Shown here piece after piece: positions 21,161 to 43,213 of a stretch of 64,000 bases of DNA (positions are counted from its first letter, which is position 1; the number at the start of each line of letters is the position of its first letter). The translations under genes and the position numbers were made by a program. Origin of the DNA: Chitinophagaceae bacterium (GTDB lineage: Bacteria > Bacteroidota > Bacteroidia > Chitinophagales > Chitinophagaceae); NCBI GenBank assembly GCA_035318985.1, contig DATHDP010000020.1:51-64050 (forward strand), in the 5' to 3' direction. Below the pieces are notes generated by a model. The model worked only from the letters and a program-made list of their open reading frames with translations, ran no database searches and had not been told where the DNA came from.

Positions 21161-21169
21161 ACTAATTCC

Positions 21170-26714: not shown

Positions 26715-27578
26715 TTAAATAGAAAGTGTTTTCATGTAAACAGCATCAGCCTGCGCAGCTTGCATTGGAGTTGTCCCTTCCCACTTTTCTTGCTCGATTA
26801 TATAGTATTCCATTCCATATTTTTTTGCAGTCTTCAGGATCTTTGGATAGTTTATACTTCCGGTACCAACTACAACGCTTTCATCTTTATCAGTTAATGG
26901 TGCTCCTTTTTTACGATCTTTTACATGGCATAAGCGGAAACGCTTCGGGTATTTTTTTAGCCATGTTTCAATATCCTGCCCGGCAGCAACTACCCAGTAC
27001 ATATCCAATTCAAAATCGACAAGACTTGCATCCGTATTTTTCATCATTACATCCTGACCCATTTCACCATTCAGTGTAGCAAATGAATAATCGTGATTAT
27101 GATAGGCAAAACGAATCCCGTTCTTTTTACATATCTCACCTTTCTGGTTGAACTCATCGGCAAATTTTTTAAATGCATCGAGGTCTTTTTGTGGTCCTTT
27201 ATATGGACAGATCAAATATTTCATTCCAATAGCTGCTGCATCAGCTGCTTTCTTTTCAAAATCTTTACTGATATCGCAATGACTGGAAATTATTTTCATC
27301 CCGAGGTTATCCATCTCAGCTTTAAATTCTGTATTGCTCATCCCCCAAAACATTCCTTTGCCACCTTCAAAGCTTTCTATTTGTTTATAACCATACGTTG
27401 ATAATTGCTTTAACACTCCTTTCGGATCTTTTGCAAGATCATCACGAACACTCCATAGTTGTATCCCAAAGTTTTTCAGTTTAGCTGCTTCTCCGGCAAG
27501 CGAAGCAAAACCTGATTTTGATGCAAGCCCTGCCAACGCAAGTCCGCCACTTAATTTCAAAAACTCATTTCTTTTCAT
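26715..27578 (-). CDS. Xylose-isomerase-like TIM-barrel protein (sugar phosphate isomerase/epimerase family), exported
   Basis: It has a TAT-like leader (MKRNEFLKLSGGLALAGLA...). The TIM-barrel pattern includes FAYHNHDYSF and an E-rich metal-site context. Confidence 0.78.
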   Translation of the reverse strand: MKRNEFLKLSGGLALAGLASKSGFASLAGEAAKLKNFGIQLWSVRDDLAKDPKGVLKQLSTYGYKQIESFEGGKGMFWGMSNTEFKAEMDNLGMKIISSHCDISKDFEKKAADAAAIGMKYLICPYKGPQKDLDAFKKFADEFNQKGEICKKNGIRFAYHNHDYSFATLNGEMGQDVMMKNTDASLVDFELDMYWVVAAGQDIETWLKKYPKRFRLCHVKDRKKGAPLTDKDESVVVGTGSINYPKILKTAKKYGMEYYIIEQEKWEGTTPMQAAQADAVYMKTLSI

Positions 27579-27596
27579 ATGTATATTGATTAAATA

Positions 27597-28163
27597 TTAA
27601 ACAAATAATTTATCTCCTTTTTTATAAGGTACAGCTCCATCATATTTACCCGGCACTTGCTGATAGTTGAAGTTTTGCTCCAATCCAGGTTTTGAAGTAA
27701 AGTAACCCATTAAAGTAAGTTGCTTCATCATTAAAAAATAATGATTAGGATCTTCTTTCTTTTTAGTTTTCATGTATTCTTTTGCTTCCTTATCAAGCGA
27801 GGTCAATAATTCTTTACGATGAGCTGGTTCAGCTTTCATAAAACTATGACCGTGCATTTTATTACAAGCCTCGTCCAATTTCTTCATTCCTTCATGAAAT
27901 GTTTTTTGATCGGCTTCTTCATAGCAATCATTTACCATAACAGTCATGAACTTACCAACCTCTGCTTCTTTAGCACCTGCCGTCGTGGTTTTCGGTATGA
28001 TCGTTTCTGCTACTTCGTCAAGAAATGCAATGTTATCTGCTGAAAAAACAGTTCCTGCTACTTCAGCATCTTTGCTTTTACATCCTGCAAGAAAAAATTC
28101 ACCGCCAATTACAACGCCACCTGTAGCGAGTGCGACCATTTTTAAGAGTTCTCTTCTTTCCAT
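27597..28163 (-). CDS. Gluconate 2-dehydrogenase subunit 3-family small subunit (TAT signal plus lipobox)
   Basis: MERRELLKMVALATGGVVIGGEFFLAGC combines a twin-arginine motif with an LAGC lipobox. It is a paralog of 33276-33917. Confidence 0.8.
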   Translation of the reverse strand: MERRELLKMVALATGGVVIGGEFFLAGCKSKDAEVAGTVFSADNIAFLDEVAETIIPKTTTAGAKEAEVGKFMTVMVNDCYEEADQKTFHEGMKKLDEACNKMHGHSFMKAEPAHRKELLTSLDKEAKEYMKTKKKEDPNHYFLMMKQLTLMGYFTSKPGLEQNFNYQQVPGKYDGAVPYKKGDKLFV

Positions 28164-28181
28164 TTGGTTGTATTTAATATA

Positions 28182-29870
28182 TTAAAGATTTTGTTTTTTT
28201 AGTTCATTGACCGCATGATCTGCGGCTCTTGCTGTATATGCCATATAAGTTAGCGACGGATTTACGCAAGAAGCACTCGCCATACAAGCTCCATCTGTTA
28301 CAAACACATTCATTGCATCCCAAACCTGGTTGTGTTTATTCAAGACACTTGTCTTTGGATCTTTTCCCATTCTTGCTGTTCCCATTTCATGAATCCCATG
28401 CCCGATAGCATGCCCGCTATCATAGGTGCTTAGATTCTTAACACCTGCCGCATCTAGCATTTCTTTAAGCTCTTCTTTAATAGCTACCCGCATCTTCATT
28501 TCATTATCTTTTATTTCAGCATCCATTGCGAGAACAGGCAAGCCCCATTTATCTTTTCTATTTTTATCTAAATAAATTTTGTTTTCATGATAGGGAAGAA
28601 TTTCACCAAAACCAGTTGCGCCCATCCGCCATTTTCCCGGCTCGCATAATGCATCTTTAAATTCGCTGCCAACATTTAATTCTGCAATTTCACGTCCCCA
28701 ACCAGTCCTGCTTGCACTGCCCTGGTATCCGAACCCTCTTACAAAATCTCTTTTCTTTGTATCGCCAATAAAATTTGCAAACCGTGGAATATAAAATCCG
28801 CAGGGACGACGACCTTGTTCCTCGATATCAGTAAAGCCCTCTATTTCTCCCGACACACCAAGGTTATAATGATGGTCCATAACATTATGACCTAATTCAC
28901 CGCTGCTGCTTCCTAACCCTTCCGGAAAAACATCAGTAGCCGAATTAAACAATAACCAAGTTGAATTCAATGTGGACGCACAAACAAAAACGATCTTTGA
29001 TTTGAATTCATAAGTTTTGTTATCACTTGCATCAAGCACTTCAACCCCAGTTGCTTTCTTTTTATCCTTATCGTATAAAATTTTTGTAACAATAGATAAA
29101 GGTCTTACTGTAAGATTATTTGTTTTCATTGCAGCAGGAAGGGTAGAAGATTGTGTGCTGAAATATCCACCAAAAGGACAACCTTCCCAGCAACGATTCC
29201 GAAACTGGCAATTCGTTCTTTCGTTAAGCGGTTCTGTAATATTTGCAGTACGACTATGGATCATGTGTCGCTGGCCCTTATAAAAATTCTTTATTTTTTC
29301 AGCAACATCTTTTTCTACCATATTTAATGGTATTGGAGGCATAAATTTTCCATCAGGCAATTGTGGCAAGCCTTCCAATGAACCGCTAATACCTGCAAAT
29401 TTTTCAACATGATCATACCACGGTGCAAGATCATTATAACGAATCGGCCAATCAACACCATGACCATCTTTTGCATTTGCTTCAAAGTCCGTATCGCTCC
29501 AGCGATAACTTTGGCGACCCCATAAAGTAGAACGACCGCCCATTCGATATACACGCCACCAGGTAAAAGGTTTTATTTCTGTATAGGGAGATTCAATTTC
29601 ATTCACCCATGCATCCATTATTCTGTCATATGCAGCCCATCCGCGATGAATCACCGGGTAGTCTTTTTTCTGTTGTGCAGTAGTCGCACCGCGGTGTGTA
29701 AATTCCCACGGATCTTTATTGGCGGTCTTATAATCTTTTATATGCTCGTAAGGACCGCCCCGTTCGAGCATCAGCACTTTCAAACCCTTTTCACAAAGTT
29801 CTTTTGCAGCCCAGCCACCGGAAATTCCAGAGCCTACTACGATTGCATCAAATGTGTTGTTGTCTGCCAT
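28182..29870 (-). CDS. GMC-family FAD-dependent oxidoreductase (paralog D), no signal peptide
   Basis: It has the ADP-binding fold DAIVVGSGISGGWAAKEL and the Cys-rich block CQFRNRCWEGCPFGGYF. The C-terminal GMC block is IHEMGTARMG...NVFVTDGA. Confidence 0.9.
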   Translation of the reverse strand: MADNNTFDAIVVGSGISGGWAAKELCEKGLKVLMLERGGPYEHIKDYKTANKDPWEFTHRGATTAQQKKDYPVIHRGWAAYDRIMDAWVNEIESPYTEIKPFTWWRVYRMGGRSTLWGRQSYRWSDTDFEANAKDGHGVDWPIRYNDLAPWYDHVEKFAGISGSLEGLPQLPDGKFMPPIPLNMVEKDVAEKIKNFYKGQRHMIHSRTANITEPLNERTNCQFRNRCWEGCPFGGYFSTQSSTLPAAMKTNNLTVRPLSIVTKILYDKDKKKATGVEVLDASDNKTYEFKSKIVFVCASTLNSTWLLFNSATDVFPEGLGSSSGELGHNVMDHHYNLGVSGEIEGFTDIEEQGRRPCGFYIPRFANFIGDTKKRDFVRGFGYQGSASRTGWGREIAELNVGSEFKDALCEPGKWRMGATGFGEILPYHENKIYLDKNRKDKWGLPVLAMDAEIKDNEMKMRVAIKEELKEMLDAAGVKNLSTYDSGHAIGHGIHEMGTARMGKDPKTSVLNKHNQVWDAMNVFVTDGACMASASCVNPSLTYMAYTARAADHAVNELKKQNL

Positions 29871-31549
29871 TAAAGATTTCCTTTTTTAAGTTCATTTACC
29901 GCATGGTCAGTTGCCCTTGCCGTCAATGCCATATAGGTGATTGAAGGATTTTGACAAGCTGATGATGTCATGCATGCGCCATCAGTATTAAATACATTTT
30001 TTACTTCGTGCAACTGGTTCCATTTGTTCAGTACAGATGTTTTAGGATCATTTCCCATCCTGGCTGTTCCCATTTCATGAATGCACAATCCGGGATAAGC
30101 TTTTTCATCATTGAATGTATAAATATCTTTTATACCTCCTGACTCAAGCATCTCAGCTGCACTATTCATCATGTCTTTTCGCATAGCAATTTCATTTCCC
30201 TTCCACTCACAATCAATTTCAAGCTGGGGCAATCCCCATTTATCTTTTTCCGTTTTGCTAAGTGTAACCTTGTTATCAGGATGTGGTAATTGTTCACCCC
30301 AGCTTCCTAACCAAAAACTCCAATCACCTGGTTCGGTCGTTTGTTCTTTTAATTCCGATCCAATACCATCACCATTCCAATTCATACCTCTTGATGCACC
30401 ACCCTGGTAACCAAAACCACGGAGATAATCAGAACGTTTTGTCTTTTCATTTATATTTCTGAAACGGGCCACATAAATACCATTGGGCCTGCGCCCCGAA
30501 ATAACCTTGTCTTTTAAGCCATCATAATTTCCTCCTGCGCCTACATGGTAATGATGATCCATAAGGTTTCGTCCTAATTGATCACTTGAATTGCCCATAC
30601 CATTTGGAAAAACATCGGATACAGAATTTAATAAAATACTTGTTGAACCTAATGTAGATGCATTTAAAAAAATAATTTTTGCAAAGTATTCTATTGATTC
30701 ATTTGTATTCTCATCAATGATACGTACTCCTTTGGCTTTCTTCTTTTCCTTATCATACATCACTTCCATTACAATTGAATGAGGACGCAGTGTTAAATTG
30801 CCTGTGCTTGCTGCAACAGGTAATGTAGCGGAATTGCTGCTGAAATACCCGCCAAAGGGACAACCTCTGTCACAAAGATTGCGGTACTGGCAAGGACCGC
30901 GGCCATTCCAACCTTTAGTTAAATTGGCAACTCGCCCAATGATCATTCTTCTGCCATCAGTAAATTTTTGGTTGATGTTTTCAGAAACATGTGTTTCGAG
31001 AGCATTCATTTCCATTGGAGGTAAAAAATCACCGTCTGGTAATTGGGGCAATCCTTCTTTACTGCCACTGATCCCCGCAAACTGTTCTACATAACTATAC
31101 CATGGGGCTATATCTTTATATCGGATCGGCCAATCAACACCATGACCGTCTTTTGCATTCGCTTCAAAATCGAGATCACTCCAGCGATAACATTGTCTTC
31201 CCCACATCAGGCTTCTTCCACCAACATGATAACCTCTTATCCAGTCGTAGGGTTTTTTTTGTACATAAGGATGTTCTTTATCATTTACAAAAAAGTGACT
31301 GTTGGCTTCATTACAAAAACCACGAACCTGTATATGTTGATCTTCTTTAATTTTTTTTGTGTTTTGATTTCGATGTAATAATTCCCAGGGAGCAAGATTG
31401 GTGGTAGGATAATCTTTAATATGTTCAACCTGCCGGCCTCTTTCAAGAACTATTGTTTTTAATCCTTTTTTGCATAATTCCATGGCTGCCCAACCACCAC
31501 TAATACCAGAGCCAACTACTATTGCGTCGTATGTATTAGTGTCAGTCAT
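29870..31549 (-). CDS. GMC-family FAD-dependent oxidoreductase (paralog C), no signal peptide
   Basis: It has DAIVVGSGISGGWAAMEL, CQYRNLCDRGCPFGGYF and IHEMGTARMG. Its TAA stop shares one base with the ATG of paralog D (TAATG). Confidence 0.9.
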   Translation of the reverse strand: MTDTNTYDAIVVGSGISGGWAAMELCKKGLKTIVLERGRQVEHIKDYPTTNLAPWELLHRNQNTKKIKEDQHIQVRGFCNEANSHFFVNDKEHPYVQKKPYDWIRGYHVGGRSLMWGRQCYRWSDLDFEANAKDGHGVDWPIRYKDIAPWYSYVEQFAGISGSKEGLPQLPDGDFLPPMEMNALETHVSENINQKFTDGRRMIIGRVANLTKGWNGRGPCQYRNLCDRGCPFGGYFSSNSATLPVAASTGNLTLRPHSIVMEVMYDKEKKKAKGVRIIDENTNESIEYFAKIIFLNASTLGSTSILLNSVSDVFPNGMGNSSDQLGRNLMDHHYHVGAGGNYDGLKDKVISGRRPNGIYVARFRNINEKTKRSDYLRGFGYQGGASRGMNWNGDGIGSELKEQTTEPGDWSFWLGSWGEQLPHPDNKVTLSKTEKDKWGLPQLEIDCEWKGNEIAMRKDMMNSAAEMLESGGIKDIYTFNDEKAYPGLCIHEMGTARMGNDPKTSVLNKWNQLHEVKNVFNTDGACMTSSACQNPSITYMALTARATDHAVNELKKGNL

Positions 31550-31567
31550 TAAAAATTAATACTTGGT

Positions 31568-33247
31568 TTAAAGATTTCCTTTTTTAAATTCTTCCGCTGC
31601 ATGATTTGCCGCTCTTGCTGTTATTGCCATAAACGTCAATGATGGATTTTGTGTTCCTGTTGATGCCATACAAGCTCCATCCGTTACAAATACGTTCGGA
31701 CAATTATGAAACTGGTTCCATTTATTAAGCATTGATGTCTTTGGATCTTTTCCCATTCTTACTCCACCCATTTCATGAATATCCAAGCCGGGAGCTTGCT
31801 TACTATCCCGTGGATAAATGTTTTTACATCCCGCTTTTGTAAGCATTTCAACTCCCTGATCATGAAAATCCTTTACTAGCAGCTCATCATTTTCATCATA
31901 ATCAACGGAAGTTATCAATTGAGGTATTCCCCAATCATCTTTTTTATCTGTACTCAGGCGAACATGATTTGTTTCTTTTGGGATCGTTTCACCTTGCATC
32001 ATCATATAAATTCCCCATGGACCAGCTTGTGTCATCGAATCTTTTAATTCAGCGCCGATGCCATCATACCCAGATCCCTGGTACCTGTTTGCTGTAAACG
32101 CAACAAGATAGCCACGCTTAAATGGCATTTCCTGTTTGCGTACATTTCTGAATGATGGCATGATGATCATCGTTGGTCTGCGGCCATAGGTTTGAAAATT
32201 TTCAAATCCATCATAAGTGGCACTAATGCTGCCGCGATAATTATGAAAGCAAATAAATTTTCCCAAAAGACCATTATCATTTCCAAGCCCGTTAGGAAAA
32301 CGTTCTGATCTTGAGTTTAATAAAATAAGATTTGTGTTTATGCAAGCAGCATTTACAAAAATTATTCTTGCAGAATATTCAGTTGCTTCTTTTGTTTTTG
32401 CATCGATCACTTTTACACCAGTCGCTTTTTTCTGCTTGTCATCATAAATAATTGAATGAACAACTGAATTTGTTTTCAAAGTAAGATTGCCTGACTTCTG
32501 CGCCCATGGAATAGTTGATGCATTGCTACTGAAATAACCACCAAAAGGACAACCACGTTCGCATAAGCTCCTTGCCTGGCATTGTTGTCTTCCTTGTTGG
32601 ATATGTATATCCTGTGGCTGAGTTAAATGTGCACAACGACCAATGATGGCCGGCCTGTCTGGATAATTTGTTTTTATTTGTTCAACAAGATGTTTCTCCA
32701 CGACATTCATATCCCATGGCGGTAAAAATTCACCATCGGGTAAATTTTCCAATCCATCTTTATTGCCACTGATGCCGGCAAATTTTTCAACATGACTATA
32801 CCATGGCGCCATATCATCATAATTGACTGGCCATGGAGTTGCATAGCCATCTCTTGCAGGCGCATCAAATTCGAATTTGCTCCAGCGTTGTACTTGTCTT
32901 GCCCATAGCAAGGACTTGCCGCCAACCTGGTAAGCCCTGATCCAGTCGAAAGGTTTTTCCTGTATGTATGGATGCTCTTTATCTTTTACAAAGAAATGTT
33001 CAGTGGCTTCACCAAATGCATAACATTTTGCAACGGTGGGGTTTTCTTTTAAAACAGAAGGAGGCATTTCACCACGATGTGCTAATTGCCACGGATCTTT
33101 TGTTGCAGTGGGATAATCTTTGAGATGGACAACATCACGACCACGTTCAAGCAATAAAACTTTTAATCCTTTATCACAAAGTTCTTTTGCGGCCCATCCG
33201 CCGGATATGCCGGAACCAATTACGATCGCATCAAATTGTTCTTCCAT
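31568..33247 (-). CDS. GMC-family FAD-dependent oxidoreductase (paralog B), no signal peptide
   Basis: It has MEEQFDAIVIGSGISGGWAAKEL, CQARSLCERGCPFGGYF and IHEMGGVRMG. The listed start at 33397 overlaps the upstream gene and is rejected in favour of the ATG at 33247. Confidence 0.88.
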   Translation of the reverse strand: MEEQFDAIVIGSGISGGWAAKELCDKGLKVLLLERGRDVVHLKDYPTATKDPWQLAHRGEMPPSVLKENPTVAKCYAFGEATEHFFVKDKEHPYIQEKPFDWIRAYQVGGKSLLWARQVQRWSKFEFDAPARDGYATPWPVNYDDMAPWYSHVEKFAGISGNKDGLENLPDGEFLPPWDMNVVEKHLVEQIKTNYPDRPAIIGRCAHLTQPQDIHIQQGRQQCQARSLCERGCPFGGYFSSNASTIPWAQKSGNLTLKTNSVVHSIIYDDKQKKATGVKVIDAKTKEATEYSARIIFVNAACINTNLILLNSRSERFPNGLGNDNGLLGKFICFHNYRGSISATYDGFENFQTYGRRPTMIIMPSFRNVRKQEMPFKRGYLVAFTANRYQGSGYDGIGAELKDSMTQAGPWGIYMMMQGETIPKETNHVRLSTDKKDDWGIPQLITSVDYDENDELLVKDFHDQGVEMLTKAGCKNIYPRDSKQAPGLDIHEMGGVRMGKDPKTSMLNKWNQFHNCPNVFVTDGACMASTGTQNPSLTFMAITARAANHAAEEFKKGNL

Positions 33248-33275
33248 AAGAAAACCTAACTCCCTAAAGGAGATT

Positions 33276-33917: not shown

Positions 33918-33940
33918 TATAAAAAATTTAATAAGATTAA

Positions 33941-35632: not shown

Positions 35633-35790
35633 GTTTTACTTGGTATTTAAAATTGAATATTGATTTAGAATACAAATTTTATTATGAGCCTTGCTGCAGT
35701 GCTACTATTAAACTTATGTTGCGTCGCACTATTGTACCGTAACAATTCTATTCAACAATTGAATGATGAACCCCTGGTAACATCTTTAAT

Positions 35791-35825
35791 CTAAGTCACT
35801 CCGCCATAGGCGGAGGACAGGCGTT
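35791..35825. repeat. GC-rich hairpin module CTAAGTCACTCCGCCATAGGCGGAGGACAGGCGTT abutting a stop codon
   Basis: CTCCGCC (35799-35805) pairs with GGCGGAG (35809-35815). The flanks CTAAGTCAC...GACAGG are shared with 22136-22166. It overlaps the TAA of the 35824-36720 gene. Confidence 0.5.
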
Positions 35826-36720: not shown

Positions 36721-36758
36721 ATTTACAAGCGGATTCTAAAGTTACAATAGTCCCTGCT

Positions 36759-37994: not shown

Positions 37995-38013
37995 GATTTT
38001 TAGAATTCAATAT

Positions 38014-39243
38014 TTATGCGTGAGCTGCTTTCTGTTGCTTGTAAACATTTCGTCTTACTATATATATAACTATGAAAATTACAAGAACTATGGCCGGCAT
38101 AATGGCAACTTTCATAAATGTTTCTGAACCTGCCGCGGCTTCAGCTTGTGCTGTTTGCATTCCTTCTGAAATTGCTTTTGCCTTTGCCTGGTCCAGCCAC
38201 TTTCCCATAACTGGTAAGATCAATGAAACTGAAAACATACCTGCTCCGCCCATTAATGATAAACCTAATGCACCAGTTTTTGGTAAATATTCTGCAACAA
38301 ATCCAAGCATAGTTGGCCAGAAGAAACAGATACCTACTGCATAAACTGCTGCAGCTCCAAATGCTGCATACCCGCTAATCTTACTTAATAATACAAGACC
38401 AATACCAGCAAATATTGCAGAGAATATCAGCATTCCATTTGGATTAAGTCTATGAACAACCGGGCCTGCAAAGGATCGCCCTAATGCCATTATTCCAAAT
38501 ATGAAGACGAGGACCAAAATACCTGAAACATTTGTTCCCTGAAGAAGAGCCAGAATCCAGGTTGTTGTTCCAAGTTCTGTAGCGGCAGTTAAAAACATGC
38601 AGATGATCATTATAAGGAACAAAGGATTTAAACAGGCTTTGAACATATCACCAGTTGAAACGCCACTTGTAACTCTCTCTGTTTCCGGGAATTTCAATTT
38701 TAAAAACATAAAACCATAAATCACAACGGCGATAAATAATGGGATCATTAATAACCGCCAATCAAGATTCAGTTGTGTTAGCACTATATAGGCAAGTAGT
38801 CCACCAATCACATTCCCTCCTGGAAACCACACATGAAATCGATTTAACATGGTTGTTTTATTGTTAGGATATAATGATACAACAAGAGGATTGCAAGCTG
38901 CTTCTACCATTCCATTTCCAATACCAATGCAAAGAGTTCCTATAAATAGCATGGTGGCATCCTTTGCAATGATATAAATTACTGCTCCTGCAATATGCCC
39001 AACAAATGCAAAACCAACCAGGCGTTTCATGCCAAGTACATCACAAAGGGGGCCGCCAATTACCATTGCAAGTGTGAATCCCCAGAATGCGGGACTAAAA
39101 ACCCAGCCTACTTGTTCTTTATTAATATTAAACTCTGATCCCCATACTCCTTCAAGCGATGCCCTGAAGGCAAAAGTGAGAGATGTAAATATCAGTGCGA
39201 TACAACTTGCTAAGAAAAGTTGATTTTTGTTTACGGCTTGCAT
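38014..39243 (-). CDS. MFS sugar-type transporter
   Basis: It has about 12 helices with the MFS pattern. I prefer the ATG at 39243 (MQAVNKNQLFLASCIALIF...) over the listed 39321. Confidence 0.75.
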   Translation of the reverse strand: MQAVNKNQLFLASCIALIFTSLTFAFRASLEGVWGSEFNINKEQVGWVFSPAFWGFTLAMVIGGPLCDVLGMKRLVGFAFVGHIAGAVIYIIAKDATMLFIGTLCIGIGNGMVEAACNPLVVSLYPNNKTTMLNRFHVWFPGGNVIGGLLAYIVLTQLNLDWRLLMIPLFIAVVIYGFMFLKLKFPETERVTSGVSTGDMFKACLNPLFLIMIICMFLTAATELGTTTWILALLQGTNVSGILVLVFIFGIMALGRSFAGPVVHRLNPNGMLIFSAIFAGIGLVLLSKISGYAAFGAAAVYAVGICFFWPTMLGFVAEYLPKTGALGLSLMGGAGMFSVSLILPVMGKWLDQAKAKAISEGMQTAQAEAAAGSETFMKVAIMPAIVLVIFIVIYIVRRNVYKQQKAAHA

Positions 39244-39342
39244 ATCGTTGGTTTTTATGAAAAAAATTTTGGAAAGGCTAAATGTACTATTTTTAAAAAC
39301 ACATTTACCTTCAATGTTCACGAATTTAATTTATATCAAACC

Positions 39343-39359
39343 ACAAACAACTGTTTGAA
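39343..39359. promoter_or_regulatory. 17-nt box ACAAACAACTGTTTGAA (CAAACA-N2-TGTTTG inverted arms), candidate operator
   Basis: It ends 2 nt before the ATG at 39362, in the divergent control region. An identical 17-mer lies at 46774-46790 upstream of pfkA. Confidence 0.4.
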
Positions 39360-39361
39360 AT

Positions 39362-40522
39362 ATGGAAAATAGGAAACTCAGAATGGGAATGATCGGTGGC
39401 GGCAAGGATGCATTCATCGGCGCCATTCATCGTTTTGCATTTAATATGGATGCACAAATTGAAATTGTTGCCGGCGCATTAAGTATTAATCCGGAGATCG
39501 CGGTTGATTCAGGAAAAAGTTTATTTCTTGATGAATCCCGCATTTATACAGATTATAAAGTGATGCTGGAAAAAGAAGCTGCAATGCCAAAAGATAAACG
39601 AATTGATTTTGTCAGCATTGTTACTCCAAACTTCGTGCATTTTGATCCGGCTATGATGGCTCTCGATAAAGGGTTTAATGTAGCAATTGAAAAGCCAATT
39701 ACTTTTTCATTGGAGCAAGCAAAACAATTAAAAGAAAAAGTAGCACAAACGGGATTGACTCTTTTACTTACTCATACCTATACCGGCTATCCAATGATAA
39801 AGCAGGCAAAACAAATGCTGAAGAGTGGATTGCTTGGTAAGATCAGGAAAGTATATGTTGAATATCCGCAAGGATGGTTGAGCACATTGAAAGAGAGTGA
39901 AGGAAATGCGCAAGCTTCATGGAGAACAGATCCAAAGCGTAGTGGCATAGCAGGAGCGATGGGAGATATCGGAACACATGCATTTAATATGGCCGAGTAC
40001 GTAACTGGTTTGCAGGCTACTCATTTATGCGCTAACCTGAATATAGTAGTAGATGGAAGAATGCTTGACGATGACGGCGCAACATTTATGAAATTTAATA
40101 ATGGAGCAACTGGTGTATTAATGGCGACACAAATTGCCGCGGGTGAAGAAAACTGTATTAAGATAAGAGTATATGGAGAGAAAGGAGGTCTTGAATGGAA
40201 ACAGGAAGATGCAAATACTTTATTAGTTAAGTGGCTTGATAAACCTGCAGAGATATATCGTGCGGGTACGGGCTATGTAAGTTCTTATGCATCGCATAAC
40301 TCAAGAACACCTGCTGGTCATCCTGAAGGATATCTTGAAGCATTTGCAAATCTTTACCGAAATTTTTCTTTGACCGTTCGTGCAAAGTCGAATGGAGAAA
40401 AACCAAAAGATGAATGGCTTGATTTTCCAGGTGTTGATGAAGGCATAAGAGGAATGGCATTTATTGAAAATGTGGTTGCTTCGGGTAAGTCAGATGCAAA
40501 ATGGACTGAATTCAAAGTTTGA
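39362..40522 (+). CDS. Gfo/Idh/MocA-family NAD(P)-dependent oxidoreductase, cytoplasmic
   Basis: The N-terminal Rossmann block is LRMGMIGGGKDAFIGAIH, and the EKP motif appears as AIEKPITF. There is no signal peptide. Confidence 0.85.
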   Translation: MENRKLRMGMIGGGKDAFIGAIHRFAFNMDAQIEIVAGALSINPEIAVDSGKSLFLDESRIYTDYKVMLEKEAAMPKDKRIDFVSIVTPNFVHFDPAMMALDKGFNVAIEKPITFSLEQAKQLKEKVAQTGLTLLLTHTYTGYPMIKQAKQMLKSGLLGKIRKVYVEYPQGWLSTLKESEGNAQASWRTDPKRSGIAGAMGDIGTHAFNMAEYVTGLQATHLCANLNIVVDGRMLDDDGATFMKFNNGATGVLMATQIAAGEENCIKIRVYGEKGGLEWKQEDANTLLVKWLDKPAEIYRAGTGYVSSYASHNSRTPAGHPEGYLEAFANLYRNFSLTVRAKSNGEKPKDEWLDFPGVDEGIRGMAFIENVVASGKSDAKWTEFKV

Positions 40523-40525
40523 TCT

Positions 40526-40990
40526 CACGCAAAGGCGCTACGGCGCAAAGATGAAAATGTGAAATCAGTTAGCTTTATGACTATAAATGAAATATCAAAA
40601 ATCATTCTTGATGCTGCCTTTGAGATACATAAGAAATTAGGACCAGGTTTACTTGAATCAGTTTATGAAACAATAATGGAGTATGAGTTAATTCACACGT
40701 ACAGATTGAAAGTTTCAAGGCAAAGAGGGATCCCAGTCGTTTGGAAGGAGATGAAACTTGATCTTGGCTTCCGATCCGATTTAATTGTTGAAGATATGGT
40801 TCTGGTAGAGTTAAAATCAATAGAAGCATTAGCACCGGTTCATTATAAACAAGTTCTTACACATTTAAAGTTGACAGGATTGAAACTTGGATTACTTATC
40901 AATTTTAATGAGGAATTATTAAAGACCGGCATAAAAAGAATTGTAAATAATTTATAAAATCTAAACGTGGCGCCGTAGCGCCTTTGCGTG
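40526..40990 (+). mobile_element. ORF-in-a-stem mini-element: GxxExxY gene bracketed by 21-bp perfect inverted repeats
   Basis: CACGCAAAGGCGCTACGGCGC (40526-40546) is the exact reverse complement of GCGCCGTAGCGCCTTTGCGTG (40970-40990). The element starts 3 nt after the upstream TGA and ends 4 nt before the downstream ATG. Confidence 0.6.
40577..40957 (+). CDS. GxxExxY protein (PD-(D/E)XK nuclease-superfamily small protein)
   Basis: It has the family N-terminus INEISKIILDAAFEIHKKLGPGLLESVYE (the GxxExxY motif is GLLESVY). DLIVEDMVLVELK matches the D...ExK core. I prefer the ATG at 40577 over the GTG at 40559. Confidence 0.85.
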   Translation: MTINEISKIILDAAFEIHKKLGPGLLESVYETIMEYELIHTYRLKVSRQRGIPVVWKEMKLDLGFRSDLIVEDMVLVELKSIEALAPVHYKQVLTHLKLTGLKLGLLINFNEELLKTGIKRIVNNL

Positions 40991-40994
40991 GAAT

Positions 40995-42050
40995 ATGCGA
41001 ACAATTAAAGGGCCTGCAATATTTCTTGCACAGTTCATGGGGGACAAGCCACCATTTAATAATATGAAGACAATTTGCCAATGGGCAAAGAGTCTTGGTT
41101 TTGTTGGCGTGCAAATTCCTACATGGGATTCAAGATGTATCGATCTGCAAAAAGCAGCGGAGAGTAAAACCTATGCTGATGAATTAAAAGGATTAGTAAA
41201 TGAAGCAGGATTAGAAATTACAGAACTATCTACACACTTGCAGGGACAATTAGTTGCCGTGCATCCCACTTATGATGATCTGTTTGATGGATTTGCGCCT
41301 GACAGTGTAAAGAAAAATCCTAAAAAAAGAACTGAGTGGGCAGTACAACAATTAAAATATGCAGCAAAGGCTTCGCAAAATTTAGGTTTGAATGCTCATG
41401 CTACATTTAGCGGTGCATTATTATGGCCAACAATTTATCCATGGCCGCAACGTCCTGCAGGATTGGTTGAATCAGGATTTAAAGAATTAGCGAATCGATG
41501 GATGCCGATCTTAAATCATTTTGATGAATGTGGTGTAGATGTTTGTTATGAAATTCATCCGGGAGAAGACTTGCACGATGGCATTTCTTATGAAATGTTT
41601 TTAGAACAAGTAAATAATCATAAAAGAGCTTGCCTGCTTTACGATCCTTCTCATTTTGTTTTGCAATGTCTCGATTACAAATCATACATCGATATTTATC
41701 ATGAAAGGATAAAAGCATTTCATGTAAAAGATGCTGAATTTAATCCGACAGGTAAACAAGGTGTATATGGAGGGTTCCAAAGTTGGATTGATCGGGCAGG
41801 TCGTTTCCGTTCATTGGGTGATGGACAAGTTGATTTCAAAACTATCTTTAGCAAATTGACACAATATGATTACAGTGGCTGGGCCGTGATGGAGTGGGAG
41901 TGTTGTATTAAACATCCTGAAGATGGCGCCAGGGAAGGAGCTCATTTTATTAAAAAGAATATCATCCGGGTTACAGAAAAAGCCTTTGATGATTTTGCCG
42001 GGCAATCAAGTGATGAAAAATTTAACCGAAAAGTTTTAGGATTGGAATAA
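40995..42050 (+). CDS. Xylose-isomerase-like TIM-barrel protein (sugar phosphate isomerase/epimerase family), cytoplasmic
   Basis: There is no signal peptide. TIM-barrel blocks include YEIHPGEDLHDG, LLYDPSHFVLQ and WAVMEWE. Confidence 0.8.
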   Translation: MRTIKGPAIFLAQFMGDKPPFNNMKTICQWAKSLGFVGVQIPTWDSRCIDLQKAAESKTYADELKGLVNEAGLEITELSTHLQGQLVAVHPTYDDLFDGFAPDSVKKNPKKRTEWAVQQLKYAAKASQNLGLNAHATFSGALLWPTIYPWPQRPAGLVESGFKELANRWMPILNHFDECGVDVCYEIHPGEDLHDGISYEMFLEQVNNHKRACLLYDPSHFVLQCLDYKSYIDIYHERIKAFHVKDAEFNPTGKQGVYGGFQSWIDRAGRFRSLGDGQVDFKTIFSKLTQYDYSGWAVMEWECCIKHPEDGAREGAHFIKKNIIRVTEKAFDDFAGQSSDEKFNRKVLGLE

Positions 42051-42085
42051 TAAATACCTTTACGAACTTTAAAAAAATCAACGAT

Positions 42086-42454
42086 ATGAAAAAAACAGTT
42101 TTTATGATCATGGTAGTTGCTGTACTTACTTCGTGTGGGGGAGGTGGCAAAACCGAAGAGAAACCTAAAGTGGTTGATATTACTGAAGATCCGGTTTACC
42201 AAAAAGGAGTTGAAATTGTTGCAAACAGTGATTGCAAAACTTGTCATATGATCGATGAAAAAAATGTTGGACCTGCATGGAGAGATGTTGCTAATAAATA
42301 TGCCGACTCAGCTAACGCCGTAGCGTATCTTTCTCATAAAATTATAAATGGTGGTTCTGGTGTTTGGGGGCAAGTGCCGATGGCGGCTCATCCGACTATG
42401 TCCCAGGAAGACGCAGAGACCTTGGCTAAATATGTTCTACTATTAAAAAAATAA
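42086..42454 (+). CDS. Mono-haem c-type cytochrome, lipoprotein
   Basis: It has a lipobox (VAVLTSCGGGG), a single CKTCH haem-binding motif, and a distal Met region (GVWGQVPMAAHP). Confidence 0.88.
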   Translation: MKKTVFMIMVVAVLTSCGGGGKTEEKPKVVDITEDPVYQKGVEIVANSDCKTCHMIDEKNVGPAWRDVANKYADSANAVAYLSHKIINGGSGVWGQVPMAAHPTMSQEDAETLAKYVLLLKK

Positions 42455-42460
42455 ATTATA

Positions 42461-43213
42461 ATGAGACTAATTCTTGCTTTTGCAATAGCAATTTCTTTTG
42501 TTGCCTGCAATGATAATTCTGCAGAAAAAAAAGAAGAAACAAAGATCGAACCCGTGACAAATAATAATCCTTTACTTACTGACGAAGAACAAAAAGATGG
42601 CTGGCAATTATTGTTTGATGGAACTACTATAGCTGGTTGGCATAACTATGGTGGTGGCGCGGTTAGTAACTTATGGAAAGTGGAAGATGGTACTCTTAAA
42701 TTTGCGGGTGCAGAAAAAAAAGATACTATAGGTCATGATATAATTACCGACAATGAGTATGAGAACTTCGATCTGAAACTTGAATGGAAGATCGATACTG
42801 CTGGAAATAGCGGTATCCTGTTTTATGTACAGGAAGATGCTGCACATCCTAAGCCATACTGGACAGGACCAGAAATGCAGATACTCGATAATGAAAGGCA
42901 TGACGATAGAAAATATCCTAAGCACCGTGCTGGTGATCTGTATGACCTGATCAGTTGCAGTAAAGAAACAGTAAAGCCAGCTTTGGAGTGGAACCAGGTA
43001 GAAATAAAAAGTGTGAATGGCAAACTTGATTTTTTCTTAAATGGAGAGAATGTGGTTTCTACAACTATGTGGGATGATAAATGGAATAAAATGATCGCCG
43101 CAAGTAAATTTAAACAATGGCCGGGCTTTGGTACATTTAAAAAAGGAAAGATCTGTTTGCAGGATCATGACTGCAATGTTTGGTTTAGAAATATAAAAAT
43201 TAAAAAGATGTAA
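42461..43213 (+). CDS. DUF1080 (3-keto-disaccharide hydrolase family) lipoprotein
   Basis: It has a lipobox (AISFVACNDN). Family blocks are present: DGWQLLFDGTT..GW, WKVEDGTL, YENFDLKLEWK...GNSGI, and the C-terminal ICLQDHDCNVWFRNIKIK. Confidence 0.8.
   Translation: MRLILAFAIAISFVACNDNSAEKKEETKIEPVTNNNPLLTDEEQKDGWQLLFDGTTIAGWHNYGGGAVSNLWKVEDGTLKFAGAEKKDTIGHDIITDNEYENFDLKLEWKIDTAGNSGILFYVQEDAAHPKPYWTGPEMQILDNERHDDRKYPKHRAGDLYDLISCSKETVKPALEWNQVEIKSVNGKLDFFLNGENVVSTTMWDDKWNKMIAASKFKQWPGFGTFKKGKICLQDHDCNVWFRNIKIKKM

What the first reader, a model, noticed from the sequence alone, without database searches (positions are those of the whole stretch)
26715..43213. 16.5-kb divergent locus combining periplasmic GMC dehydrogenases, TIM-barrel enzymes, DUF1080, cytochrome c, a Gfo/Idh/MocA enzyme and two MFS transporters: candidate respiratory-linked oxidative glycoside-cleavage system
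What the sequence shows:
- The minus-strand genes 39243->26715 run MFS, NHS-type MFS, TAT-TIM barrel, GMC-A, small subunit, GMC-B, GMC-C, GMC-D, small subunit, TAT-like TIM barrel. Within the seven-gene 35632->26715 run the gaps are 18-28 nt or the genes overlap.
- The divergent plus-strand operon 39362->43213 encodes Gfo/Idh/MocA, a cytoplasmic TIM barrel, a mono-haem cytochrome c lipoprotein and a DUF1080 lipoprotein. It ends at a strong terminator.

What established knowledge adds:
- DUF1080 is the 3-keto-disaccharide hydrolase family.
- GMC or Gfo/Idh/MocA oxidoreductases paired with xylose-isomerase-like TIM-barrel lyases or isomerases carry out the oxidise-then-eliminate route. That route is known for 3-keto-glycosides, C-glycosides and levoglucosan.
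- FAD dehydrogenase complexes pass electrons to cytochrome c.

My inference: the locus encodes both a periplasmic branch (GMC + exported TIM + DUF1080 + cytochrome c) and a cytoplasmic branch (MFS import + Gfo/Idh/MocA + TIM) of such a pathway. The substrate cannot be read from the sequence. No glycoside hydrolase, SusC/D pair or regulator lies inside the locus, so it would be a GH-independent, respiration-coupled way of breaking glycosidic bonds. I have not seen this combination, a four-dehydrogenase array plus an NHS-type transporter, described as a unit.
Basis: partly seen in the sequence, partly recalled or inferred. Interest (0 to 1): 0.78.

Follow-up and report, generated by a model that had tools for sequence, protein, structure and literature searches.

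The report
Expanded 3-keto-glycoside breakdown locus
This soil Bacteroidota locus is a well-conserved, unusually expanded copy of the already described bacterial pathway that splits sugars off glycosides by oxidising them first instead of hydrolysing them, so it is a good example of a known system rather than a new one.

Summary
All 14 ORFs are at the stated coordinates and in the stated families. Strong terminators bound both arms.

The functional call (oxidise, then eliminate, with electrons passed to cytochrome c) is right, and can be made much more specific:
- The four GMC proteins are 46-64% identical over their full length to GlycDH, the characterised FAD glycoside 3-dehydrogenase of Rhizobium sp. 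GIN611.
- The "cytoplasmic TIM barrel" is 73% identical to the Agrobacterium 2-hydroxy-3-keto-glucal hydratase (PDB 8RO4).
- The Gfo enzyme is 41% identical to its partner reductase.
- The terminal exported TIM barrel matches the 3-keto-beta-glucoside lyases and keeps both catalytic histidines.
- DUF1080 proteins are characterised 3-keto-alpha-glucoside lyases/hydratases.

I read the locus as one pathway split across the inner membrane, not two branches.

The unit is already described in Agrobacterium, Caulobacter, Pedobacter and gut Bacteroides. The same divergent architecture recurs in dozens of genomes and metagenome contigs. Of 38 loci with complete GMC arrays, 29 have one GMC gene, 8 have two and 1 has three. 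This window has four, the extreme. An NHS-type permease is a regular component, present in 20 of the 38.

One component remains unexplained: a conserved TAT-exported isomerase-like TIM barrel next to the core dehydrogenase.

The parts
38014..39243 (-). MFS transporter (409 aa), first gene of the minus-strand operon. Candidate importer of the sugar-derived product or of glycosides.
   Evidence: Pfam MFS_1, 85 bits. An MFS sits directly upstream of the TIM_T homologue in 13 related loci. The closest relative L001 carries a different MFS type (54% identity) between near-identical flanks.
36759..37994 (-). NHS-family ('nucleoside:H+ symporter'-like) MFS permease. Proposed importer of 2-hydroxy-3-keto-glucal, 3-keto-glucose or a glycoside.
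   Evidence: Pfam Nuc_H_symport, 410 bits. TIGR00889 scores 402 bits, below its cut-off of 446. An NHS gene lies directly upstream of TIM_T in 27 related loci. The window's copy belongs to a second orthogroup that is elsewhere paired with a cytoplasmic Gfo/Idh/MocA.
35824..36720 (-). TIM_T: TAT-exported TIM barrel, hydroxypyruvate-isomerase / ketose-3-epimerase-like. Role not established; proposed periplasmic keto-glycoside isomerase/epimerase.
   Evidence: NRRDVLK signal. Pfam AP_endonuc_2. Best matches are Hyi/OtnI models and PDB 3ngf, with psicose 3-epimerases next. E175-D211-H237-E274 align with the epimerase metal ligands. No similarity to TIM_L or HYD. Directly followed by a GMC_A-type gene in 42 loci.
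33941..35632 (-). GMC_A: FAD glycoside 3-dehydrogenase catalytic subunit, the core type.
   Evidence: 64.5% identical over its full length to GlycDH of Rhizobium sp. GIN611. GxGxxG, the C-x5-C-x3-C-P-F-G cluster motif and the HEMG..RMG motif are present. 36 of 38 loci with a single GMC hit carry this type.
33276..33917 (-). Small subunit 1 (PF13618). TAT-signal lipoprotein, proposed export escort and membrane anchor for the signal-less GMC subunits.
   Evidence: Pfam Gluconate_2-dh3, 119 bits. RRELLK plus LAGC lipobox.
31568..33247 (-). GMC_B: paralogous FAD dehydrogenase, the most divergent of the four.
   Evidence: 46% identical to GlycDH and 46-51% to the other three GMCs. All motifs intact. 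Orthologues at 61-76% identity occur in L053, L077 and L102.
29870..31549 (-). GMC_C: paralogous FAD dehydrogenase.
   Evidence: 55.5% identical to GlycDH. Motifs intact. Orthologues in L004 (96%) and L070 (69%).
28182..29870 (-). GMC_D: paralogous FAD glycoside 3-dehydrogenase.
   Evidence: 64.3% identical to GlycDH and 66% to GMC_A. It is the commonest second GMC in two-GMC loci.
27597..28163 (-). Small subunit 2 (PF13618), TAT-signal lipoprotein.
   Evidence: Pfam, 134 bits. RRELLK plus LAGC. 59% identical to small subunit 1.
26715..27578 (-). TIM_L: exported TIM barrel, candidate 3-keto-beta-glucoside 1,2-lyase (AtOGE / BT1-AL1 type).
   Evidence: PDB 8TCD/8TCS/8TCT at E 4e-34 to 1e-30, and AtOGE 8BVK at 5e-16. 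25% identical to AtOGE, with the essential H134 and H189 conserved as H162 and H218. KRNEFLK signal.
26666..26690 (-). Intrinsic terminator closing the minus-strand operon.
   Evidence: 11-bp stem with 6 GC pairs plus a T run, 25 nt after the TIM_L stop codon.
39244..39361 (.). 118-bp divergent intergenic region, presumed to hold the promoters of both operons.
   Evidence: Gene coordinates. The same divergent layout occurs in L064, L065 and many metagenome loci. No promoter was identified.
39362..40522 (+). Cytoplasmic Gfo/Idh/MocA oxidoreductase, candidate NAD(P)H-dependent 3-keto-glucose reductase.
   Evidence: 41% identical over its full length (E 4e-84) to A. tumefaciens 'Gfo Oxo'. That enzyme, with NADH, AtOGE and AtHYD, converted 3-keto-phlorizin to glucose. 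PDB 3v5n at 1e-107. No signal peptide.
40526..40990 (+). Inserted cassette: a PDDEXK_3 ORF (40559/40577-40957) flanked by a perfect 21-nt inverted repeat. Not part of the pathway.
   Evidence: Pfam PF13366, E 8e-37. Inverted repeat 40526-40546 / 40970-40990. Absent from the same spacer in L001, L003 and L062.
40995..42050 (+). HYD: cytoplasmic 2-hydroxy-3-keto-glucal hydratase orthologue.
   Evidence: About 73% identical over 350 aa to PDB 8RO4 '2-hydroxy-3-keto-glucal hydratase', E 2e-175; identity estimated from the printed alignment. More than 120 homologues at 82% identity or more.
42086..42454 (+). Mono-haem c-type cytochrome lipoprotein, proposed electron acceptor of the GMC dehydrogenases.
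   Evidence: Pfam Cytochrom_C. Single CKTCH motif and LTSC lipobox. A mono-haem cytochrome c is the acceptor of the FAD glucoside 3-dehydrogenase of R. radiobacter. It co-occurs after HYD in most related loci.
42461..43213 (+). DUF1080 lipoprotein, candidate 3-keto-alpha-glucoside 1,2-lyase and glucal hydratase.
   Evidence: Pfam PF06439, 170 bits. PDB 8RR2, 8TDA and 4JQT at E 3e-39 to 8e-48. Function of the family from Liu 2021 and the Nasseri preprint.
43232..43258 (+). Intrinsic terminator closing the plus-strand operon.
   Evidence: 12-bp stem with 7 GC pairs plus a T run.

Best explanation
The locus encodes the oxidation-elimination-hydration-reduction route of glycoside breakdown (the '3-keto-glycoside pathway'). 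It is the respiratory, FAD-dependent form, split across the inner membrane.

Periplasmic steps:
1. Four paralogous FAD/[3Fe-4S]-type GMC glycoside 3-dehydrogenases have no signal peptide. I propose they are carried out by, and tethered through, two TAT-signal lipoprotein small subunits.
2. They oxidise the C3-OH of glycosides. The electrons go to the mono-haem cytochrome c lipoprotein and on to a terminal oxidase.
3. The 3-keto-glycosides are then cleaved by 1,2-elimination. TIM_L would cleave beta-anomers and the DUF1080 lipoprotein alpha-anomers.
4. This releases the aglycone, or the reducing-end sugar, plus 2-hydroxy-3-keto-glucal. DUF1080 can also hydrate that product to 3-keto-glucose.

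Import and cytoplasmic steps:
5. The keto-sugar product is imported by the NHS-type and/or MFS permease.
6. It is hydrated in the cytoplasm by the AtHYD orthologue.
7. The Gfo/Idh/MocA enzyme reduces it with NAD(P)H to glucose.

The four dehydrogenases most likely widen the range of glycosides that feed one shared downstream pathway.

Basis of each part:
- Shown here: family membership, orthology to characterised enzymes, conserved catalytic motifs, export signals, operon structure and recurrence of the unit.
- Inferred: substrates, direction of the Gfo reaction in vivo, which molecule is transported, sharing of small subunits, and the role of the TAT-exported TIM_T.
For: - GMC_A and GMC_D are 64% identical to the characterised GlycDH; GMC_C is 56% and GMC_B 46%. 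All are full-length matches.
- All four GMCs keep the C-x5-C-x3-C-P-F-G motif. It aligns with the CCGNNNCMPICPIG segment of the fructose dehydrogenase large subunit.
- HYD is about 73% identical to PDB 8RO4.
- The Gfo is 41% identical to the A. tumefaciens reductase used in the in-vitro reconstitution.
- TIM_L matches the BT1/AL1-type lyase structures at E 4e-34. It keeps both His residues whose mutation abolishes AtOGE activity.
- DUF1080 matches BT2157-type structures at about 3e-39. Its lyase/hydratase role is documented.
- A mono-haem cytochrome c is the known acceptor of FAD glucoside 3-dehydrogenase.
- TAT and lipobox signals are present on the small subunits, and the GMCs have no signal peptide.
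- Genes are tightly packed and each arm ends in a terminator.
- The same unit occurs in L064 and L065, in 38 complete loci, and on a Hymenobacter plasmid.
- The HYD-Gfo-transporter module stands alone in Phyllobacterium. This supports import of the keto-sugar product.
- LacABC-type clusters give growth phenotypes on lactose, salicin and other glycosides in Caulobacter and Pedobacter.
Against: - No enzyme of this locus has been assayed, and nothing in the sequence names the substrates.
- TIM_L is only 25% identical to AtOGE.
- TIM_T, the most tightly linked partner of the core dehydrogenase, has no assigned step in the known pathway.
- There are two small subunits for four GMCs, so the export stoichiometry is unclear.
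- The permeases could import intact glycosides instead. Gfo/Idh/MocA enzymes of this pathway type can also act as 3-dehydrogenases (BT2158, DgpA, levoglucosan dehydrogenase).
- No terminal oxidase or regulator is encoded nearby.
Confidence: 0.82

Rival explanations
1. Two parallel branches. A periplasmic GMC-based route works beside an independent cytoplasmic route. In the cytoplasmic route, imported glycosides are oxidised by the Gfo/Idh/MocA enzyme and cleaved by the cytoplasmic TIM barrel.
For: Gfo/Idh/MocA enzymes are the 3-dehydrogenases in the Bacteroides, PUE-strain and levoglucosan systems. Two permeases are present. The window's NHS orthogroup is elsewhere paired with another cytoplasmic Gfo/Idh/MocA.
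Against: The cytoplasmic TIM barrel is about 73% identical to AtHYD. AtHYD is inactive on 3-keto-phlorizin and acts as the glucal hydratase. The locus encodes no cytoplasmic lyase: both lyase candidates carry export signals. The window's Gfo is the full-length orthologue (41%) of the enzyme used as an NADH-dependent reductase. It scores far below the cut-offs of the BT_2158 and levoglucosan dehydrogenase models.
Confidence: 0.1
2. The GMC array is not about glycosidic bonds. It is a set of periplasmic sugar, polyol or sugar-acid dehydrogenases for incomplete oxidation and energy gain, like gluconate 2-dehydrogenase, fructose, sorbitol or FAD-glucose dehydrogenase. The neighbouring genes merely salvage keto-sugars.
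For: The small subunits fall in the 'gluconate 2-dehydrogenase subunit 3' family. The nearest solved structures are the fructose and glucose dehydrogenase large subunits. B- and C-type paralogues are more distant from GlycDH.
Against: The alignments to fructose and glucose dehydrogenase are weak (E about 1e-31 to 1e-28), against 46-64% identity to a glycoside 3-dehydrogenase. Those complexes use a separate cytochrome subunit (three haems, from memory), not a mono-haem lipoprotein. The array is co-operonic with two lyase candidates and is linked in dozens of loci to the hydratase/reductase pair.
Confidence: 0.05
3. The locus is specialised for C-glycosides, anhydrosugars (levoglucosan) or nucleoside-like N-glycosides rather than ordinary O-glycosides. 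The NHS permease would import such compounds.
For: GlycDH also oxidises C-glycosides. The permease is in the nucleoside:H+ symporter family. The Gfo has a partial match to the levoglucosan dehydrogenase model.
Against: No two-subunit C-glycoside lyase (DgpBC/CarBC type) was found among the locus ORFs. The levoglucosan dehydrogenase model scores 113 bits against a cut-off of 650. The NHS score is below the nucleoside-permease cut-off, and NHS genes accompany this locus type generally. In Hymenobacter the unit lies next to SusC/D and GH65, which points to alpha-glucoside disaccharides.
Confidence: 0.03

Closest known systems
Agrobacterium tumefaciens / Rhizobium sp. GIN611 GlycDH operon (GlycDH + TAT protein, AtOGE, AtHYD, Gfo oxidoreductase; Bitter et al. 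2023, PMC10628242). The later 'glycoside utilisation locus' work by the same group is cited from memory; that paper is not held in the library.
   Same: The same four chemical steps are carried by homologous proteins: GMC dehydrogenase 46-64% identical, TAT small subunit, beta-eliminase-type TIM barrel with both catalytic His, hydratase about 73% identical, reductase 41% identical. The split is also the same: dehydrogenase and lyase exported, hydratase and reductase cytoplasmic.
   Different: This locus has four dehydrogenase paralogues and two small subunits instead of one each. It adds a DUF1080 lyase/hydratase, a cytochrome c gene inside the operon, an extra TAT-exported Hyi-like TIM barrel, and MFS/NHS permeases. 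It is arranged as two divergent operons.
Caulobacter crescentus LacABC lactose/salicin 3-dehydrogenase cluster and its Pedobacter, Indibacter and Algoriphagus counterparts (Arellano 2010; Price et al. 2022, PMC9007349; Liu et al. 2021, PMC8121099).
   Same: A three-component dehydrogenase lies near DUF1080, a transporter, two 'sugar epimerases' (TIM barrels) and a sugar reductase. Growth phenotypes on lactose, salicin, raffinose and other glycosides were measured. Bacteroidota examples are already noted there.
   Different: I had no LacA sequence, so identity was not measured. Those clusters are described with a single dehydrogenase. The four-GMC array, the NHS permease and TIM_T are not discussed.
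Bacteroides thetaiotaomicron BT2156-BT2160 and Alistipes 'AL' operons (Liu 2021; Nasseri et al. 2024, preprint 10.1101/2024.03.25.586180).
   Same: A BT1/AL1-type 3-keto-beta-glucoside lyase (TIM_L matches 8TCD/8TCS/8TCT) and a DUF1080 alpha-lyase/hydratase (matches 8TDA/8RR2) are present, with the same oxidation-elimination-hydration logic.
   Different: There the oxidant is a TAT-exported Gfo/Idh/MocA enzyme with tightly bound NAD, recycled by reducing 3-keto-glucose, so there is no net electron output. Here the oxidant is an FAD dehydrogenase wired to cytochrome c, giving net respiratory electrons. The Gfo here is cytoplasmic and scores 31 bits against a cut-off of 750 for the BT_2158 model. 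There is no SusR-type regulator here.
Membrane-bound FAD dehydrogenase complexes (Burkholderia FAD-glucose dehydrogenase 6A2U; Gluconobacter fructose dehydrogenase 7W2J).
   Same: The GMC catalytic subunit has the conserved Cys cluster motif, and there is a small TAT 'hitch-hiker' subunit.
   Different: Similarity is low (E about 1e-31 to 1e-28). Those complexes oxidise free sugars and use a separate cytochrome subunit (three haems, from memory). Here there is a soluble-type mono-haem lipoprotein and a downstream lyase pathway.

Membership tests
3-keto-glycoside pathway locus, FAD/GlycDH type (A. tumefaciens operon) | GMC-family FAD glycoside 3-dehydrogenase orthologue | tested here: met
   GMC_A 64.5%, GMC_D 64.3%, GMC_C 55.5% and GMC_B 46.2% identity over about 560 aa to GlycDH of Rhizobium sp. 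GIN611. The GlycDH sequence came from Supplementary Table 6 of PMC10628242 with OCR errors, so these identities are lower bounds.
3-keto-glycoside pathway locus, FAD/GlycDH type (A. tumefaciens operon) | TAT-signal small subunit co-encoded with a signal-less catalytic subunit | tested here: met
   Two PF13618 proteins carry RRELLK and a lipobox. The four GMCs start directly with the FAD-binding fold.
3-keto-glycoside pathway locus, FAD/GlycDH type (A. tumefaciens operon) | 3-keto-glucoside beta-eliminase (xylose-isomerase-like TIM barrel) with the two essential His | tested here: met
   TIM_L against AtOGE gives E 9e-18 at 25% identity. H134 and H189 of AtOGE align with H162 and H218. The matches to 8TCD/8TCS/8TCT are stronger (4e-34). 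Activity itself was not tested.
3-keto-glycoside pathway locus, FAD/GlycDH type (A. tumefaciens operon) | 2-hydroxy-3-keto-glucal hydratase | tested here: met
   About 73% identity over 350 aa to PDB 8RO4, E 2e-175.
3-keto-glycoside pathway locus, FAD/GlycDH type (A. tumefaciens operon) | Gfo/Idh/MocA 3-keto-glucose reductase adjacent to the hydratase | tested here: met
   41% identity over the full length, E 4e-84, to A. tumefaciens Gfo Oxo. It is adjacent to HYD here (apart from the inserted cassette) and in L001, L003, L062, L064, L065, L147 and L148.
3-keto-glycoside pathway locus, FAD/GlycDH type (A. tumefaciens operon) | Demonstrated C3 oxidation, elimination, hydration and reduction activities | not testable with these tools
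   This needs enzyme assays.
LacABC-type three-component periplasmic glycoside 3-dehydrogenase with linked DUF1080 | GMC subunit + small subunit + c-type cytochrome, with a DUF1080 gene nearby | tested here: met
   All four families are present within the locus. Identity to Caulobacter LacA/B/C was not measured because no sequences were available.
Bacteroides BT2156-BT2160 / AL operon type | TAT-exported Gfo/Idh/MocA glycoside 3-dehydrogenase (BT_2158 family) as the oxidant | tested here: not met
   The window's Gfo has no signal peptide. It scores 30.7 bits against a cut-off of 750 for NF058561. A TAT-exported Gfo does occur in related loci L056 and L065.
Bacteroides BT2156-BT2160 / AL operon type | BT1-type lyase and DUF1080 lyase/hydratase | tested here: met
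   TIM_L against 8TCD/8TCS/8TCT, and DUF1080 against 8TDA/8RR2.
FAD-glucose / fructose dehydrogenase-type membrane complexes | Cys-rich cluster motif in the catalytic subunit | tested here: met
   C-x5-C-x3-C-P-F-G is present in all four GMCs. It aligns with CCGNNNCMPICPIG of the fructose dehydrogenase large subunit. That this motif binds a 3Fe-4S cluster is from my own knowledge of those enzymes.
FAD-glucose / fructose dehydrogenase-type membrane complexes | Dedicated multi-haem cytochrome c subunit | tested here: not met
   The only cytochrome is a 122-aa lipoprotein with one CxxCH motif.
Polysaccharide utilisation locus (PUL) | Adjacent SusC/SusD pair | tested here: not met
   None was found in the locus or among the other ORFs of the window that I scanned. 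The Hymenobacter version does lie next to SusC/D and GH65.
Levoglucosan degradation cluster | Levoglucosan dehydrogenase equivalog | tested here: not met
   NF052479 scores 113 bits against a cut-off of 650.
C-glycoside deglycosylation systems (CarABC / DgpABC) | Pyranose-oxidase-like C-glycoside 3-oxidase or DgpA, plus a two-subunit C-C lyase | tested here: not met
   The GMCs match pyranose oxidases only in the C-terminal 130 residues (E 1e-8 to 1e-11). No small lyase beta-subunit ORF was seen among the locus ORFs. C-glycoside activity of the enzymes themselves is not testable here.
NHS (nucleoside:H+ symporter) transporter family | Sequence membership | tested here: met
   PF03825 scores 410 bits. 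The TIGR00889 subfamily model scores 402 bits, just under its cut-off of 446.
NHS (nucleoside:H+ symporter) transporter family | Nucleoside as transported substrate | not testable with these tools
   The context argues for a sugar-derived substrate. An NHS gene lies next to TIM_T-GMC in 27 loci and next to Gfo-HYD in Hymenobacter. The other orthogroup is paired with a Gfo/Idh/MocA in 42 of 61 loci.

The most novel reading that the evidence does not exclude
Three linked ideas are not excluded by the evidence.
1. The Bacteroidota version of the 3-keto-glycoside pathway contains an extra, uncharacterised periplasmic step. It would be catalysed by the TAT-exported Hyi/ketose-epimerase-like TIM barrel (TIM_T) that sits directly upstream of the core dehydrogenase in 42 loci. 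One possibility is a keto-glycoside isomerase/epimerase that channels non-gluco or 2-keto species into the lyases.
2. The 'nucleoside permeases' of the NHS family in these bacteria are really importers of 2-hydroxy-3-keto-glycal, 3-keto-sugars or glycosides.
3. The four-paralogue dehydrogenase array sharing two escort subunits and one cytochrome c is a specificity array. It would let a soil Chitinophagaceae bacterium respire on a wide range of glycosides without glycoside hydrolases.
Probability: 0.35. Interest if true: 0.5.

Novelty: new member of a known kind. Interest (0 to 1): 0.3.

Why it matters
The pathway itself is established, so the main value is annotation. Genes now labelled 'GMC family oxidoreductase', 'gluconate 2-dehydrogenase subunit 3', 'sugar phosphate isomerase/epimerase', 'DUF1080' and 'nucleoside permease' in many soil, freshwater and marine Bacteroidota can be read as one respiratory glycoside-cleaving unit.

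The survey adds three things:
- The GMC copy number ranges from one to four.
- An NHS-type permease is a regular part of the unit.
- One conserved exported TIM barrel has no assigned step. It is the most useful target for enzymology.

Unlike the NAD-recycling gut Bacteroides version, this form delivers electrons to the respiratory chain. That matters for how aerobic soil bacteria gain energy from plant glycosides and disaccharides.

Tried and rejected
- NCBIfam gave no match above a curated cut-off for any of the ten proteins scanned, so it did not help naming.
- The small subunit has no relative in the PDB by sequence.
- The sigma-70 promoter scan found fewer sites than the shuffles (39 against 56). 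It is not informative for Bacteroidota, so I name no promoter.
- My first literature searches were too loose or empty.
- The final Nature paper of Nasseri et al. and the Angewandte paper of Kastner et al. are not held. I used the Nasseri preprint and mark my recollection of the Kastner paper as memory.
- The supplements of Liu 2021 are not held.
Most of the 63 hits were an orthologous permease in unrelated contexts. That became informative in itself: it revealed two NHS orthogroups.
- I considered that the 642-aa thioredoxin-like gene (24667-26595) belongs to the locus, because Hymenobacter has a thioredoxin gene next to its GMC. I rejected this. The gene lies beyond the terminator, and L004 has CutC directly after TIM_L.
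- I did not run structure prediction for TIM_T. Its sequence matches already place it among Hyi/epimerase-like barrels, and a fold match would not assign a substrate.

Full report
**1. Observation**

The ORF map matches the finding. On the minus strand ten genes run from 39243 to 26715, in this order:
- MFS
- NHS-type MFS
- TAT TIM barrel (here TIM_T)
- GMC_A
- small subunit 1
- GMC_B
- GMC_C
- GMC_D
- small subunit 2
- an exported TIM barrel (here TIM_L)

The gaps between them are 19, 38, 191, 23, 28, 18, -1, 18 and 18 nt.

On the plus strand, 118 bp away, lie the Gfo/Idh/MocA gene (39362-40522), a 351-aa TIM barrel (40995-42050), a cytochrome c (42086-42454) and DUF1080 (42461-43213).

Pfam confirms every family above its gathering score.

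The N-termini show these signal features:
- Both small subunits have RRELLK plus a LAGC lipobox.
- TIM_T has NRRDVLK and TIM_L has KRNEFLK.
- The cytochrome (one CKTCH motif) and DUF1080 have lipoboxes.
- The GMCs, the Gfo and the 351-aa TIM barrel have no signal.

Each arm ends in a strong hairpin-plus-T terminator, at 43232-43258 (+) and 26690-26666 (-).

A PDDEXK_3 protein (E 8e-37) lies at 40559/40577-40957, in the 472-nt spacer between the Gfo and TIM genes.

**2. What the proteins are**

Comparison with solved structures and characterised enzymes is specific.

- *351-aa TIM barrel.* It is about 73% identical over 350 residues to PDB 8RO4, '2-hydroxy-3-keto-glucal hydratase' (E 2e-175).
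- *GMC proteins.* I took the sequences printed in Supplementary Table 6 of Bitter et al. 2023 (PMC10628242). They carry OCR errors, so the identities are lower bounds. Against GlycDH, the FAD glycoside 3-dehydrogenase of Rhizobium sp. GIN611, the full-length identities are: GMC_A 64.5%, GMC_D 64.3%, GMC_C 55.5% and GMC_B 46.2%.
- *Gfo.* It is 41% identical (E 4e-84) to the A. tumefaciens 'Gfo Oxo'. In that paper GlycDH oxidises O- and C-glucosides at C3. AtOGE eliminates the aglycone and gives 2-hydroxy-3-keto-glucal. AtHYD is inactive on the 3-keto-glycoside and is assigned to hydration. The Gfo enzyme plus NADH completes the conversion to glucose.
- *TIM_L.* It matches the TIM-barrel structures 8TCD/8TCS/8TCT at E 4e-34 to 1e-30, and AtOGE (8BVK) at 5e-16. 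In the pairwise alignment the two AtOGE histidines align with H162 and H218 of TIM_L. Alanine variants of those two residues lose activity: 235 U/mg falls to <0.01 and 0.04.
- *DUF1080.* It matches BT2157-type structures (8RR2, 8TDA) at about 3e-39. [quoted passage not shown] - *Electron path.* All four GMCs keep a C-x5-C-x3-C-P-F-G motif. It aligns with CCGNNNCMPICPIG of the fructose dehydrogenase large subunit. In those complexes this motif binds the 3Fe-4S cluster (my own knowledge). A mono-haem cytochrome c is the reported acceptor of the FAD glucoside 3-dehydrogenase of Rhizobium radiobacter (citing Miyazaki 2018).

**3. How it most likely works**

I read the locus as one pathway that crosses the inner membrane.

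1. Periplasm: C3 oxidation by the GMC enzymes, with electrons passed to cytochrome c.
2. Periplasm: 1,2-elimination by TIM_L (beta) and DUF1080 (alpha).
3. Import of the keto-sugar product by the NHS and/or MFS permease.
4. Cytoplasm: hydration by the AtHYD orthologue, then reduction to glucose by the Gfo enzyme.

The split of exported and cytoplasmic proteins fits this reading. A Phyllobacterium plasmid also fits: it carries only LacI-HYD-Gfo-ABC transporter, so the cytoplasmic module can stand alone with a transporter.

The locus encodes no cytoplasmic lyase candidate, and the cytoplasmic TIM barrel is the hydratase type.

**4. How common the unit is**

The organism is a soil Chitinophagaceae-like member of the Bacteroidota. 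The best match is the MAG VBAS01000125, with 92-98% protein identity across most shared genes.

Contexts of HYD homologues show the same divergent unit with fewer GMC genes:
- L064 has two GMCs and one small subunit.
- L065/L066 has one GMC, one small subunit and both exported TIM barrels.

A metagenome scan with TIM_T gave 80 loci. tblastn with the window's proteins gave the following counts:

| Feature | Count |
|---|---|
| Loci with a complete GMC array | 38 |
| - one GMC | 29 |
| - two GMCs | 8 |
| - three GMCs | 1 |
| - NHS permease present | 20 |
| - MFS present | 12 |
| - both NHS and MFS present | 4 |
| Loci with a single GMC hit, complete or not | 38 |
| - best hit is the A type | 36 |
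| Loci where an A-type GMC directly follows TIM_T | 42 |
| Loci where NHS directly precedes TIM_T | 27 |
| Loci where MFS directly precedes TIM_T | 13 |

The window, with four GMCs and two small subunits, is the extreme of this range. The second GMC in multi-GMC loci is of type B, C or D.

A Hymenobacter volaticus plasmid carries the whole set in one direction, next to SusC/SusD and GH65.

The PFK-PK flank on one side and CutC on the other are shared with relatives. The locus is therefore a stable chromosomal feature.

**5. What is already published**

- Price et al. [quoted passage not shown] They report this in Caulobacter and in the Bacteroidota genera Pedobacter, Indibacter and Algoriphagus, with fitness phenotypes on lactose, salicin and other glycosides.
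- Liu et al. 2021 make the same link from Bacteroides thetaiotaomicron.
- Bitter et al. 2023 describe the four-enzyme Agrobacterium operon.
- Nasseri et al. state that the stepwise pathway is widespread in gut, soil and sea (and my recollection of the published abstract).

**6. What is left unexplained**

- *TIM_T.* It matches none of the characterised lyases or hydratases. BLAST against TIM_L and HYD is not significant. It resembles hydroxypyruvate and 2-oxo-tetronate isomerases and ketose 3-epimerases. E175, D211, H237 and E274 align with the metal ligands of psicose 3-epimerase. It is also the gene most tightly linked to the core dehydrogenase. A periplasmic keto-glycoside isomerase/epimerase is my guess, not a result.
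- *Small subunits.* Four GMCs share two small subunits. In L003 two GMC genes follow each other with no small subunit between them. Sharing of the escort subunit is likely but untested.
- *NHS permease.* The window's copy belongs to an orthogroup of 52 sequences with 75% mean identity. In 42 of 61 genome loci that orthogroup sits next to a cytoplasmic 396-aa Gfo/Idh/MocA gene, away from this locus. The 23 permeases embedded in other loci form a second orthogroup, about 54% identical to the first. This looks like replacement of one paralogue by another. It also suggests that both carry sugar-derived molecules rather than nucleosides.

**7. Verdict**

The functional interpretation is right in kind and is now anchored to characterised enzymes. 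The two-branch idea and the novelty claim are not supported. This is an expanded member of a known system. The remaining points of interest are the four-paralogue array, the unassigned TIM barrel and the likely mis-annotated permeases.

Noticed in passing
window 40526-40990: A PDDEXK_3 (PF13366) ORF is flanked by a perfect 21-nt inverted repeat (40526-40546 / 40970-40990). It is inserted in the Gfo-HYD spacer of the operon. The same spacer is only about 40 nt and empty in close relatives L001, L003 and L062. The repeat occurs nowhere else in the window.
   Followed up: partly
window 45302-45756: A 23S_rRNA_IVP-family ORF (PF05635, 45327-45728, minus strand) lies between pyruvate kinase and phosphofructokinase. 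It is flanked by a 20-nt, 90% inverted repeat (45302-45321 / 45737-45756). It is absent from the PK-PFK spacer in L003 and L062. This is a second stem-flanked small-ORF cassette of the kind found in rRNA intervening sequences, again inside an operon spacer.
   Followed up: partly
window 36759-37994; loci L005-L055: The NHS-type permease has orthologues at 66-81% identity in many Chitinophagaceae and Cytophagales. In 42 of 61 loci these lie directly beside a conserved cytoplasmic 396-aa Gfo/Idh/MocA oxidoreductase, with none of the other locus genes nearby. The function of this conserved two-gene pair is unknown.
   Followed up: partly
L001 1999-3090 versus window 38014-39243: In the closest relative the flanking Gfo (98%) and NHS (96%) are nearly identical to the window's, but the MFS gene between them is only 54% identical. 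More distant relatives (L002, L003, L065, L077) have a 72-77% version. This suggests a swap of the MFS gene between two types.
   Followed up: no
L001 5689-7353: In the closest relative (a MAG contig) the GMC_A homologue is recovered as three separate tblastn pieces of 83-93% identity. This is either a frameshifted gene or an assembly error.
   Followed up: no
window 11364-24659: The upstream neighbourhood looks like a glycopeptide / N-glycan salvage set. It holds a NagB-like/PIG-L deacetylase fusion (11364-13271), a GH20 hexosaminidase (13464-15806), two S15 X-Pro dipeptidyl peptidases (15876-19621), an exported Asparaginase_2 protein that may be a glycosylasparaginase (22887-23930), and CutC.
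   Followed up: no
window 35775-35823 (minus strand, just after the TIM_T stop codon): The 191-nt gap between TIM_T and GMC_A begins with a short GC hairpin (CTCCGCC-TAT-GGCGGAG) that has no T run. It could be a processing or stability element, or a weak attenuator between the transporter/TIM_T genes and the dehydrogenase array.
   Followed up: no
L056 (about 12500-14000) and L065 12605-13927: Some related loci additionally encode a TAT-exported Gfo/Idh/MocA protein (489 and 440 aa) of the periplasmic BT2158-like kind, next to the GMC dehydrogenase. FAD-type and NAD-type oxidants can therefore coexist in one locus.
   Followed up: partly
L147 (Hymenobacter volaticus plasmid NZ_CP095062, 24217-49251): The complete gene set lies on a 330-kb plasmid in a single orientation: GMC, small subunit, 'nucleoside permease', Gfo, HYD, cytochrome c, three TIM barrels and DUF1080. 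It is directly downstream of SusC/SusD, a GH65 and a thioredoxin-family gene.
   Followed up: partly
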